A stretch of DNA of 64,000 nt from Sphyrna mokarran (taxonomy: Eukaryota): contig JAGIQG010000008.1 in the NCBI GenBank assembly GCA_024679065.1, positions 27,590,001-27,654,000 of the forward strand, in the 5' to 3' direction. Below, piece after piece: positions 57,203 to 61,444 of the stretch. Numbering within the stretch: the stretch's first letter is position 1; each line of letters starts with the position of its first letter. The position numbers and the translations under genes are program-made. The notes beneath the pieces are model-generated. The model worked only from the letters and a program-made list of their open reading frames with translations, ran no database searches and was not told where the DNA came from.

Positions 57203-58169
57203 GTTATGAAGGCTATGCTTACCTTGTTGAGAGCATGGCTGGAGAACGAAAGTTGTGCTTTTGAGTCAGTGCGAGAGTGCATCCTCAGATATCCAGGGAA
57301 GCAAAATCTCAGGAGATGAAATTGAAACCCTGGGCCTTCATTGTTGCCATCCAAGTTGGAAGAATGTTACAGAAAATTCTGAGGTTAGATCTTTAAAGAT
57401 AAAGACTCAAATCTCTTGTGAGAATGACAGTTTCAGTTGGATTGGTTGACTCTGTCTTTACAGACACCTGGGTGGATTGTTGCAAAATCCATGGACTCTT
57501 TCTTGATTGCATCTATCATTTATTGTGCAGTGTGGGTCTTCAACCACAGTTTGCCTGTTAATTCATATGTACCACATATTACCCCTGAAAGTTGGAGTAA
57601 AAGGTGGATATTGTAATTTGTTTTATTTTTGTGATCTGGTAACATTTATTTTTGTTTGTTTAAAACCTGCAGAGCAGCGACATGCAACTTAAGCTGGAGA
57701 GTGGATCACATGAGTGACTCTCCTTCACCTCTGTGAACCACAAGATTGAAATCAGACTTGTTCAATAACCATCACTCTATGAATAAGGTAAAGTACATTT
57801 AATACACACCAATCATTTCATAATGAGTAATGGAAATTTTTAACCATTTAAATATTGATATATATTACACAGTTCTCACAGTCAATGTTGTGTGCAATCA
57901 GTATGCACCTCACTTCACTTCCCTTACTTTACATGCACATCACTTCCGTCACACTGGTGGGAAAGAAATATGTAGACAGAAATCAGCAGAATGTGGCAAC
58001 ATTGAGCATGGACAACAATCAACATGATCCAGTCTCAGAACCCAGGTGGGTTACATTCACTTAGTAATTATCCTTAAATTGCAAACTTTGGCAAATCTTA
58101 ACAAAATGCTATACTGAAGTCTAACAGAATTCTCCCAAAAACTTGGGGGTTTGGCCTAGGGTCATAAAA
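57203..58169 (+). mobile_element. LTR-like sequence preceding the PBS (5' boundary uncertain, possibly composite)
   Basis: Starts TGTTATG; ends GGGTCATAAAA just before the PBS. Confidence 0.42.
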
Positions 58170-58174
58170 TAAAT

Positions 58175-58192
58175 TGAGGACACTTCCAGGAT
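58175..58192 (+). promoter_or_regulatory. Degenerate tRNA-Pro primer-binding site
   Basis: TGAGGACACTTCCAGGAT versus TGGGGGCTCGTCCGGGAT, 13/18, in the expected position between LTR end and gag. Confidence 0.6.
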
Positions 58193-58339
58193 TTCAGATC
58201 TACAGAAAAATGGCAGTGCTGGTATTCACTGAGGTCAAGTTTGATAAGGTTTACACTGTAAATTTTGGTTTGCTAATTAAAAAGCAGGATGGCTTTGTCA
58301 ATCACCATGATTCTTCTGGAGAGAGAAGGTTTATCCTTG

Positions 58340-59921
58340 ATGATCTGGGACAATTAACCAAAGTTAGGTTAATCGCATTAGCAAAAAAGTTAAAAGCAGG
58401 AATAAAAGAGTAGAAATAATTGAGGAAGCAGCATAGCATCTGGGATTGGAAGAAAAAAAAAATCCAGATGGCAATTCAGTTGAGTTAGCTAGAATTCATT
58501 TGCAAATTATACAGCTTGAAATAGGAAAAGAGAGGAAAAAAAGTTTGAACTGGGAAAAAAGGAAAAGGAAAGAGCAAAAGAGAAAAAAATAAAAGGTTTG
58601 ATCTGAACAAGTAAGTTGAAACATGAAAGCTCAGGTTTCAAAGAGAGAGATCATATAAATTGGTCAGAGAAAAGCTTAGGTTTCAGGGTGAGAGAGAATA
58701 TAATAATTTGGATGAGGAATCAAGTCTCATTCTGAGCTTCGATATAACAAGAAATCTTTATCTATTTCCTAAATTTGTTGAAGACGGAGTTGAGAAATAT
58801 TTCATCTCATGTGAAAATCTGGCTACAAAGCTAAAATGGTCAACGAATACATAATATCTCCTTTTGCAAAGCATTTTGTCAGGAAAGGTATGAATGTGTA
58901 TTCCACTTTCAGAAGAACAGAACAATCTTCAAATTATAAGGAAGTTAAAACTGCAACATTTAATACTTATAAGCTTGTCCCCGAAGAAGATGAGTTGAAA
59001 TTTTAGACTTTAAAGCAAAGATTGAATGAAACATTTGTGGCATTTGCTTGGGAGAAATTAATTCTGTGGGGCCGGTGTTTTCAACCACCAAAGTTAAAAC
59101 AAAATTTTGAGAAAGTGGAGGGATTAATGATACAGGAGGAATTTCAAAACAGCATCTCAATAGTGATTAGATTATACTTGGAACATGATAAGATTTCTAA
59201 GGAATGGGAAGTAGCAGTTCTGGCAGATGGATGAGATATATAACATAGGCAGTTTAGGAGAGCACATCCCCATTTGTAAACTCACAGGAATGCTGCAGGA
59301 ACAGAAAATAATCTAGTTTTATGGAAAAAACAGAGGCTGTTCCAGTCAAGAAAAATCGAAGTGTGGAGGATAAAAGTAATTTGACAAAGCCATAAAACAG
59401 GGCATCTCAAAAACCCATTGTTAGAAGTTGCACAGTAAGCTGGTGGCAGTTGTAGAAACACTCATGGAGTCTTTAGAAAAGACTATAACATAAATGGAAA
59501 TGAATGTTAAAATTATAGTAATAGCGCAAGTGAAACGTCTTCTATCAGAACCTACTAGAAGGAATTCTTCCTTAACTACTGTTAAAGTATGTCAAGTTAC
59601 TGGAGGTTTTTGAGGTTATATTGAAGGGAAAAGTGTTCCCTTTGTCATCCAACAAGACATGTAAACACATTAATAGCTTTAGAGACAATGTGGCAAATCA
59701 GTCATTGATAGCCGTTGATTTAATTTACGTTCCAGATGATTTGAAAGAGAAAGCATTAATACAAAATTATTAATGGAATTTATGGTTCTGTTTCCTTCTG
59801 TAAAGTCTATTTATGAAGTAAATTAGCAAATTAATTTGTCATTGTGGCAATTGTTCCCAGTTTACCTATTGATGGGACAGATTTAATTTTGGATAATGAT
59901 TTGGCCAATGCAGGCAGTAAC
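58340..59921 (+). mobile_element. Decayed Gypsy (Gmr1/SCAN-like) gag and aspartic protease
   Basis: FDITRNLYLFPKFVEDGVEKYFISCENLATKLKW..LLLQSILSGK..YKLVPE..TFVAFAWEK..EEFQNSI..AVLAD (gag); FRDNVANQSLI (decayed LRDTGASQSL, 59678-59710); IVPSLPIDGTDLILDNDLA (protease end). Confidence 0.85.
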
Positions 59922-59924
59922 ATG

Positions 59925-60766
59925 ATGACGGCTACATTGCAGCAGGTGATTGAAAATGCTGATCTTACCAAACTTCAAAAAATTATTGTGGCCAAATATG
60001 AGAAACTTATTCCTGACAAGGAGCAATTGAAAAAAGATCTGATTAGAGTAGAGAAACAACTTTTTCGCATGAAAGATGAGTTTGCTTACGAAAAGCAAGA
60101 ACAGATGAAAAAAAAACTCGATTATTTAGCAAAGAATTAAGAATTGCAGATAAATCGAAATATTTGGTTGAATGCAGGATTTAAAAACAAGACTGATGAA
60201 TGACTGGAACTTCATCATAAAAAGGGCAATGAGATTTCTGAACTTCAATGCAATTTGGAGAACATGAGAAATTAAGAGCTGGATTTTCAAGTCGCACTCA
60301 CTCCAAGGCCAGAAATTTCTGCCTGAGGTTAACTGACCTTTGCACGGTCTTCTGAATTTTCTACCCTGCCCATTACAATTCAGCCCAAAATGTCTCTAAC
60401 ATTAAAGGGCAAATCTAGACTTTAAATCTCAATAAGGTTTGAAGAGACAGACTGAAGATCTAGCAATCAAATCAAACAAGTCTGAGGAGCAACCACTAAT
60501 CATGGAAGAAAGACTCCAAAAGGAACTGAATGCCAAGGTGAAGCTGTTCAGCTTGTAAAAGGTAACAGAATCAAAGACAACTGAATTCATCAGAGTAGTT
60601 GCAGAGCTGAATAAAAAGATTAATAAGCTTGGAAAATAATTGAAAAATAACAGAGTGAACAAATATTTGGAAGGAACGATAAAATGAAGGTTCCATTTTT
60701 CAAGCACCAGCAAGGAGGAAATAGCGTGTGCAAAAGGCTGTAGCATATCTCTTGGATAAACTAAAA
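59925..60766 (+). pseudogene. TPR: Intronless, internally deleted copy of nucleoprotein TPR N-terminal coiled coil, in frame with the retroelement protease
   Basis: Colinear blocks match remembered human TPR: MTATLQQVIENADLTKLQK ~ MAAVLQQVLERTELNKLPK; NIWLNAGFKNKTDE*LELHHKKGNEISELQCNLEN ~ [54 protein letters not shown] ~ [29 protein letters not shown] ~ NKRINKYLD; RVQKAVAYLLDKL ~ RAQKAVASLSVKL. Confidence 0.85.
60276..60386. mobile_element. MITE (same family as 33066) inserted in the TPR copy
   Basis: Ends GAGCTGGATTTT / ACAATTCAGCCC; left flank TAA; internal similarity to 33066-33193; TPR similarity resumes after it. Confidence 0.7.
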
Positions 60767-61444
60767 AATTACTTGAGTAAATACTCCCTCAGTGCAAGTT
60801 TATTCATCCAATATTGAAAACAATGAAAAGAGAAAATCTGTTATGGAGGAAGTAATCAAGGAAGATAATTGTGAAGCTGGTTGCCAATCAGACATACACT
60901 ATTTCCATAGCAAACTTAAAGGAATATTTCTATTAACAGTGAAGAAGTGCAAACTAAACCTCATGTTCTCCTCTATTGACAAACCTATGCAACGGTCATT
61001 TGTATCACAGAGTATGGATCCATATTTGAAGAGTGGAAGATAGCCAGAGTATTTATTTGTAGTCACATCAATTAGTTTGAAACCAGTGGTACAAAGTAGA
61101 GATACAAGCTGGTCAAGATATTTCTAAAACAAAGCTTTAAAAAATTTTCACTATCTTTGGTTGACCATGAAAAGACTATTGGCAAACATTATGTAATTGT
61201 TGGGATTCTATTTAGTCTTTAAAGAAATGGCGTCAGATCCTGAGTTATTATAGTTCTAGATATATGAATCCTGCTAATTCTATTGATACATGTACTGACA
61301 TTTGTTTAGGTTAAACCTTTGTAACTAAATAATGCAGTTGGTGTAATTGTGGAACAAAATACCGCTGGTCTGTAGGGAATATAACAAGCTATTGATTAAA
61401 GATTTATGATGTTAATCACCTAGACCTTCCTTCTTAACTGCACA

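What the first reader, a model, noticed from the sequence alone, without database searches (positions are those of the whole stretch)
58175..60766. Gypsy LTR element carrying captured nuclear-pore basket gene TPR fused in frame to Gag-protease
Seen: PBS, gag and protease, then with no stop or frameshift ..DLILDNDLANAGSN-M-MTATLQQVIE.. (ORF 59844-60140). This is followed by further colinear blocks resembling TPR residues ~1-460 (human numbering from memory), starting at TPR's own initiator Met and lacking introns. No RT/RNaseH/integrase is recognisable downstream. Known: TPR forms the nuclear-basket filaments; its N-terminal coiled coil homodimerises (as in TPR-MET), and its NPC-binding segment begins around the end of the captured region. 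LTR elements can capture host mRNA by template switching. Inference: this may be a relic of a non-autonomous family that replaced pol with a TPR module, which might have been released by the protease or docked particles/RNA at the nuclear basket, or acted as a dominant-negative on TPR-dependent retention of unspliced RNA. I do not know of such a system being described. This copy is dead (stops, frameshifts, MITE).
Basis: partly seen in the sequence, partly recalled or inferred. Interest (0 to 1): 0.92.

Follow-up and report, generated by a model that had tools for sequence, protein, structure and literature searches.

The report
Shark retrotransposon carrying two host genes
An ancient, now dead shark retrotransposon family lost its reverse transcriptase and integrase genes, took up spliced pieces of two host genes (TPR and an NCOA7-like gene) in their place, and still spread to at least 150 sites in the genome.

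Summary
The window copy (57225-61415) belongs to an old Gmr1-like Gypsy family of at least 153 loci on 32 contigs. After gag and protease comes intronless TPR, starting about 19 nt into its 5' UTR and ending near residue 460. A second captured gene follows, shark NCOA7-like, in two pieces out of exon order. One copy has paired LTRs 3.1 kb apart, leaving no room for pol. The protease-TPR join is shared, and in frame in 33 of 44 copies. Six joins keep one frame, but amino-acid change between subfamilies looks neutral (omega 0.96, CI 0.58-1.57). The TPR residue M489, needed for pore binding, was not captured. The best reading is a Bs1-like, trans-mobilised passenger whose host pieces kept the frame open, not a nuclear-basket docking module. 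The reversed NCOA7-like join falls at a splice donor, so a circular RNA template is possible but unproven. Verdict: a new, unusually successful variant of LTR-mediated gene capture.

The parts
57225..57666 (+). 5' LTR, inner part (its first ~500 nt are missing in this copy)
   Evidence: 69-70% to the 5' LTR and 68% to the 3' LTR of the C738 copy
57670..58056 (.). Unrelated high-copy repeat inserted in the 5' LTR
   Evidence: Many separate matches at 69-84% confined to this span; 2148 first-look candidates for the whole 57600-58700 query
58057..58168 (+). 3' end of the 5' LTR
   Evidence: Matches L090 and L091 up to the PBS
58175..58192 (+). Decayed primer-binding site, tRNA-Pro type
   Evidence: 13 of 18 to the PBS-Pro sequence in PMC4587795; 14 of 18 in L091; 9-12 of 18 in four other stretches tested
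58210..59560 (+). gag (SCAN-type capsid, zinc-knuckle remnant), broken by stops and frameshifts
   Evidence: PF02023 in 3 of 12 segments; 90 genomic matches, none with an open frame over 218 aa; knuckle read by eye
59606..59902 (+). Aspartic protease, broken
   Evidence: Asp-Thr-Gly motif readable in copies such as L070 and L079; family label recalled; no database hit
59903..59921 (+). Last ~19 nt of host TPR 5' UTR, read in frame as a linker
   Evidence: Alignments to host exon 1 start 10-19 nt before the ATG in several copies
59922..60275 (+). TPR residues 1-34, 89-92, 106 onward (host numbering) to the end of exon 6; shared in-frame deletions plus one ~150 nt deletion private to this locus; stops at codons 73, 94, 118
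60276..60430 (.). MITE-like insertion with imperfect inverted ends
   Evidence: Covered by 1 of 65 loci; depth rise in four runs; ends
60431..60776 (+). TPR ~245-315 joined in frame to ~411-460 (eel numbering)
   Evidence: 70% to host exon 12
60761..61075 (+). NCOA7-like residues ~517-634 (Mustelus numbering), two exons without their 1.6 kb intron; overlap with TPR is an 11-of-16 in-phase microsimilarity
   Evidence: E 4e-33 to shark NCOA7-like proteins; host gene on C1104; exon alignments
61076..61180 (+). NCOA7-like exon 2 piece (~residues 35-65), placed after the downstream exons
61181..61222 (+). Probable last ~13 codons and stop of the element's own pol
   Evidence: Shared by 5 copies; resemblance to an RNase H end is recalled, not tested
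61223..61415 (+). Element 3' untranslated part; this copy ends before the PPT and has no 3' LTR
   Evidence: 7 matches end at query 629-636; other copies go on to PPT and LTR

Best explanation
A Gmr1-like Gypsy element co-packaged host RNAs, and during reverse transcription switched template onto an NCOA7-like RNA and TPR mRNA, replacing nearly all of pol (inferred; the products are shown). The chimera kept LTRs, PBS and PPT and was copied by RT and integrase of an autonomous relative (inferred; no partner identified). It spread to at least 153 sites in several lineages that deleted parts of TPR independently (shown). One reading frame ran from gag to within about 350 nt of the PPT (shown for the sampled codons and joins). 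The host pieces most likely served as open-frame filler, keeping the RNA translated and away from nonsense-mediated decay, with little constraint on the protein itself (inferred). All copies seen are dead.
For: Paired LTRs, 67% identical over 801 nt, 3.1 kb apart. Introns lost in both genes. Microsimilarity at the TPR/NCOA7-like join. Frame kept in 33 of 44, 29 of 44, 11 of 20 and 7 of 11 copies at four joins, against 44 of 56 in a control stretch. Two further deletions in frame by alignment to host exons 2-3. No codon of 269 is a stop in over half the copies. Private deletions of 6 nt or more are in frame in only 20 of 57. Subfamily contrast: omega 0.96 (0.58-1.57) for TPR; differing columns 15/11/15 by codon position.
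Against: Short repeats in these coding pieces share codon phase 45-67% of the time, so six in-frame joins have a chance of 0.002-0.09, not 1 in 729. No shared stop among 41 subfamily changes has P=0.125. The last NCOA7-like join is in frame in only 4 of 19 copies. The decay-avoidance step has no direct evidence here. The protease omega is uninformative (0.45-2.6). Selection before the first amplification cannot be separated from host-lineage change (shared-versus-host omega 0.18-0.39).
Confidence: 0.55

Rival explanations
1. Pure hitchhiking: same origin, but the open frame was never selected. In-phase microsimilarity made the joins in frame, and only the cis signals mattered.
For: Neutral omega; in-phase share of repeats up to 0.67; absence of shared stops not significant; last join mostly out of frame.
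Against: Six of six upstream joins in frame across two deletion lineages; private deletions in frame only 35%.
Confidence: 0.27
2. Functional TPR module: the TPR coiled coil, fused to Gag-protease or cut free, dimerised with host TPR, docked RNA or particles at the nuclear basket, or relieved TPR-dependent retention of unspliced RNA, at least in the founding lineage.
For: In-frame fusion from the 5' UTR; high copy number; TPR limits export of unspliced CTE RNA (PMC3258255, passages); few amino-acid differences shared against host exon 6.
Against: M489 not captured; the SPOCD1-binding region 775-877 (PMC7618654, passages) not captured; much of the N-terminal oligomerisation region deleted in the main lineage; omega near 1 between subfamilies; no gag-protease-TPR fusion among 117 protein hits.
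Confidence: 0.15
3. Ordinary processed pseudogene that landed in frame in one old LTR element, later duplicated segmentally.
For: None beyond intron loss.
Against: At least 153 dispersed loci; copies 57-80% alike in a near-star tree; LTR and PPT at the 3' end, no poly(A); two genes, both lacking their 3' ends.
Confidence: 0.01

Closest known systems
Maize Bs1 (via PMC5131818 and PMC13317346, passages; the primary papers were not held)
   Same: LTR element with fragments of several unlinked host genes, some in frame, and copies sharing switch points.
   Different: Bs1 has 1-5 copies and is reported as a possibly functional gene; this family is vertebrate, ancient, at least 153 loci, all dead, with subfamilies.
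LTR-mediated retrocopies in animals (Tan et al. 2016, PMC5131818, passages)
   Same: Partial intronless mRNA inside a discontinuous LTR element, microsimilarity at joins, several parental genes, secondary retroposition.
   Different: Those are young retrocopies; the passages read report no old, large family with a long Gag-protease fusion frame.
Mouse circRFWD2 pseudogenes (Dong et al. 2016, PMC4897178, part 1 of 2 of the text)
   Same: Reversed exon order, tens of copies, little poly(A), LTR sequence in the flanks.
   Different: They keep the exact back-splice junction; here about 53 nt at the start of exon 2 are missing, so the circle is not proven.
Gmr1-like Gypsy elements (bioRxiv 10.1101/2025.03.03.638093, passages)
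   Same: SCAN-type capsid followed by protease; abundant in fish.
   Different: Integrase and RT/RNase H are replaced by host sequence.

Membership tests
Gmr1-like Gypsy | Paired LTRs | tested here: met
   C738 copy, 67% over 801 nt, score 535 against 62 for shuffles; absent at the 3' end of the window copy
Gmr1-like Gypsy | PBS next to 5' LTR and PPT before 3' LTR | tested here: met
   PBS-Pro 13-14 of 18 in 2 of 6 stretches; purine tract read by eye in L086-L089
Gmr1-like Gypsy | SCAN-type capsid in gag | tested here: met
   PF02023 in 3 of 12 segments, best E=3e-4, cut-off not shown
Gmr1-like Gypsy | Aspartic protease after gag | tested here: inconclusive
   Motif by eye; no hit; model pLDDT 51
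Gmr1-like Gypsy | Integrase before RT/RNase H | not testable with these tools
   pol is gone; the retained end resembles RNase H from memory only
Gmr1-like Gypsy | Target-site duplication | tested here: inconclusive
   The one copy examined has a truncated 3' LTR
LTR-mediated gene capture (Bs1 type) | Partial intronless host mRNA between parts of an LTR element | tested here: met
LTR-mediated gene capture (Bs1 type) | Microsimilarity at switch points | tested here: met
   11 of 16 at TPR/NCOA7-like; the two element-side joins need the parent element and were not tested
LTR-mediated gene capture (Bs1 type) | Copies share switch points | tested here: met
   44 of 67 loci align across the protease-TPR join
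LINE-made processed pseudogene | Poly(A) tail and mRNA 3' end | tested here: not met
   Host pieces end inside coding exons; PF07926 matches only the host gene
circRNA-derived retrocopy | Exons in reversed order | tested here: met
   Residues 517-634 precede ~35-65
circRNA-derived retrocopy | Exact donor-to-acceptor back-splice junction | tested here: inconclusive
   Donor end reached in 16 of 21 copies; acceptor start missing; no copy with it found in a search with 1 candidate
Pore-targeted TPR fragment | Both L458 and M489 present | tested here: not met
   TPR homology ends near residue 460, eel numbering

The most novel reading that the evidence does not exclude
The element captured a back-spliced circular RNA of the NCOA7-like gene together with TPR mRNA. 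That would make it a fossil of a circRNA older than the split of two shark orders, first built as one continuous frame from gag to the native pol stop (donor and acceptor share phase; the exon 2 piece runs in frame into the pol end in 3 of 5 copies). In the boldest form, the TPR coiled coil also helped the founder export its unspliced RNA. I put the circRNA part near 0.4 and the TPR-function part near 0.15.
Probability: 0.4. Interest if true: 0.75.

Novelty: new variant of a known kind. Interest (0 to 1): 0.6.

Why it matters
It shows that a multi-gene capture by an LTR element can become a large, long-lived family in a vertebrate, rather than the few-copy event of Bs1. Many dead copies with successive lineage-level deletions allow a direct test of whether passenger elements are selected to keep a frame open regardless of protein content. 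It preserves ancestral shark TPR and NCOA7-like states, and possibly a very old circular RNA. It also warns annotators: a TPR profile hits 85 non-gene loci in this genome.

Tried and rejected
Word-index search with the window's TPR piece found nothing. The protease model was too poor for a fold search. The gag profile had no PDB hit and a plasmid search no match. No RNA holder listed. Target-site duplication: the C738 3' LTR is truncated, and the fetch for a second 5' LTR landed in an insertion. No autonomous partner: 90 gag matches, longest open frame 218 aa. A SPOCD1-decoy idea was dropped because the binding region was not captured. In one search the second NCOA7-like exon was read out of frame, so only the first exon's diagnostic sites were used. 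Literature searches for this family found no description, nor did earlier scan notes; Repbase and Dfam could not be searched, so a deposited family cannot be excluded.

Full report
Setting. The window is G000:C1437:27590001-27654000 in a 2.77 Gb genome. The host is a shark: its NCOA7-like exons are mostly 84-100% identical to the Mustelus asterias protein. The genome could only be searched and fetched in pieces, about 300 kb in all, so copy counts are lower bounds.

TPR is real. The frame at 59835-60140 runs from the protease end into TPR without a stop. Read with X at stops, 59922-60278 matches Pfam Nucleoprot-TPR above its cut-off (E=9e-8). A profile of 22 in-frame segments from the window and other copies gave 117 hits among 1.84 billion proteins. 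Of the 20 looked up, 13 are named TPR or TPR-like, and none of the 117 looked like a gag-protease-TPR fusion on reading their first 120-300 residues. The host gene lies at C1548:55.297-55.36 Mb. Against its exon 1, copies align from 10-19 nt before the ATG, so the switch fell in the 5' UTR and the first Met, at 59922, is TPR's initiator.

It is a family. DNA across the junction has 41 matches (the window itself and 40 others at 66-80%), most spanning it. The TPR profile matches 86 of 150 scored candidates, one being the host exon, while a mid-TPR domain matches only the host gene. The union of four searches is 153 loci on 32 contigs; overlap between searches suggests 200-375. For that count I dropped host exons, duplicates of the window and a few protease-only rows: 4 of 41, 2 of 23, 1 of 86 and 3 of 74. 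Among 46 copies with enough sequence, pairwise identity averages 69%, with one supported subfamily of 24 and a nested group of 9.

It is a non-autonomous LTR element. The copy at C738:32.197-32.203 Mb has a 5' and a 3' LTR, 67% identical over 801 nt (K2P 0.45), around an internal part of about 3.1 kb. Two more copies show LTR sequence after a purine tract. Pfam finds no RT, RNase H or integrase in 21 frames from the window and five other copies; that scan also missed gag, so the spacing is the stronger evidence. Gag carries a SCAN-type capsid (3 of 12 segments), which marks Gmr1-like elements (bioRxiv 10.1101/2025.03.03.638093, passages). The protease rests on motifs alone. The window copy lacks the start of its 5' LTR and ends at 61415, before the PPT.

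A second captured gene. After TPR residue ~460 the frame continues. A profile of 14 such segments matched 5 proteins among 6435 candidates, all shark NCOA7-like (E 4e-33 to 4e-31). The host gene is at C1104:66.225-66.274 Mb. The element holds residues ~517-634 with one intron lost, then part of exon 2, out of gene order. The TPR/NCOA7-like join sits in an in-phase microsimilarity, 11 of 16 bases between the two host exons, as template switching predicts (PMC5131818, passages). After the exon 2 piece come about 13 codons and a stop shared by five copies; from memory they resemble the end of Gypsy RNase H.

The reversed join. Homology to the downstream exon reaches its last base in 16 of 21 copies. 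The letters that follow fit the start of exon 2, an 8-nt repeat of it further inside exon 2, and less well the normal next exon. A back-spliced circle followed by a deletion of about 53 nt explains this, and the two splice sites share phase. A second switch on linear mRNA explains it too. No copy with the start of exon 2 was found, in a search with one candidate. LTR-flanked circRNA pseudogenes are known in mouse (PMC4897178, part 1 of 2).

History. L074 and L095 keep TPR residues ~35-81, which the main lineage lost, and lack 82-98, part of which the main lineage keeps. Two lineages therefore deleted independently from a fuller founder. At diagnostic NCOA7-like residues inside the captured span, copies side with three orectolobiform sharks at 5 sites, with the host and Mustelus at 3, and with neither at 3, and they keep three codons this host has lost. 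Capture therefore probably preceded the split of those orders (Jurassic, recalled). The same insertion with its flanks is present in contigs of four other coded organisms, about 7-8% different, while each LTR has drifted about 0.22 since insertion.

Selection. For an open frame: four joins are in frame in 33 of 44, 29 of 44, 11 of 20 and 7 of 11 copies (control 44 of 56), and no codon of 269 is a stop in most copies; two more deletions are in frame by alignment; private deletions are in frame in 20 of 57. Against: repeats here share codon phase 45-67% of the time, the lack of shared stops has P=0.125, and the last NCOA7-like join is in frame in 4 of 19. On protein content: omega between subfamilies is 0.96 (0.58-1.57) over 173 TPR codons and 0.99 (0.45-2.6) over 85 protease codons; differing columns are 15, 11 and 15 by codon position. 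Differences shared against the host give omega 0.18-0.39, which shows the statistic can fall, but may reflect host-lineage change.

Function of the TPR piece. TPR retains unspliced CTE RNA only when anchored through L458 and M489 (PMC3258255, passages); M489 lies beyond the captured span. The SPOCD1-binding region, 775-877 (PMC7618654, passages), is absent too. With the deletions and the neutral omega, a basket role is unlikely in the lineages that spread, though not excluded for the founder.

Verdict. This is LTR-mediated gene capture of the Bs1 kind, distinguished by two nuclear-protein passengers, a long in-frame fusion, at least 153 copies against Bs1's 1-5, great age and a possible circRNA template. 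Four literature searches (listings only) and three look-ups of earlier scan notes found no description. Repeat libraries and supplements were not examined and may hold the family. Interest 0.6.

Noticed in passing
L074 (C783:41625366-41628578) and L095 (C816:12133700-12136200): Less-deleted variants keeping TPR exon 1 end and exon 2; L074 also keeps more after residue 315 and already has the NCOA7-like piece.
   Followed up: partly
P0015 (XP_033011504.1, Lacerta agilis): 390-aa 'TPR-like' protein with an unrelated N-terminal half that looks gag-like by eye, fused to a TPR piece; possibly an independent capture in a lizard. Pfam confirms only the TPR part.
   Followed up: partly
window 57670-58056: High-copy repeat inserted in the 5' LTR; family not identified.
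   Followed up: no
L096 1-91 (C738:32196900): A second PBS-plus-gag-start fragment, 90% like the main one, lies upstream of the 5' LTR of the C738 copy.
   Followed up: no
L099 (host NCOA7-like exon 2): The host has lost three codons that Mustelus and the element copies keep.
   Followed up: yes
G000 C772:11443817 and C557:4246969: Stop-containing matches to NCOA7-like residues 178-285, outside the captured span; possibly separate processed pseudogenes.
   Followed up: no
G000 C1326:111.47-111.76 Mb and C816:10.07-10.12 Mb: Two further multi-exon genes of the NCOA7/OXR1 family; the captured piece matches the C1104 gene.
   Followed up: no
L009 and L062: Copies holding the junction region twice (L009 in tandem, L062 partly inverted).
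   Followed up: no
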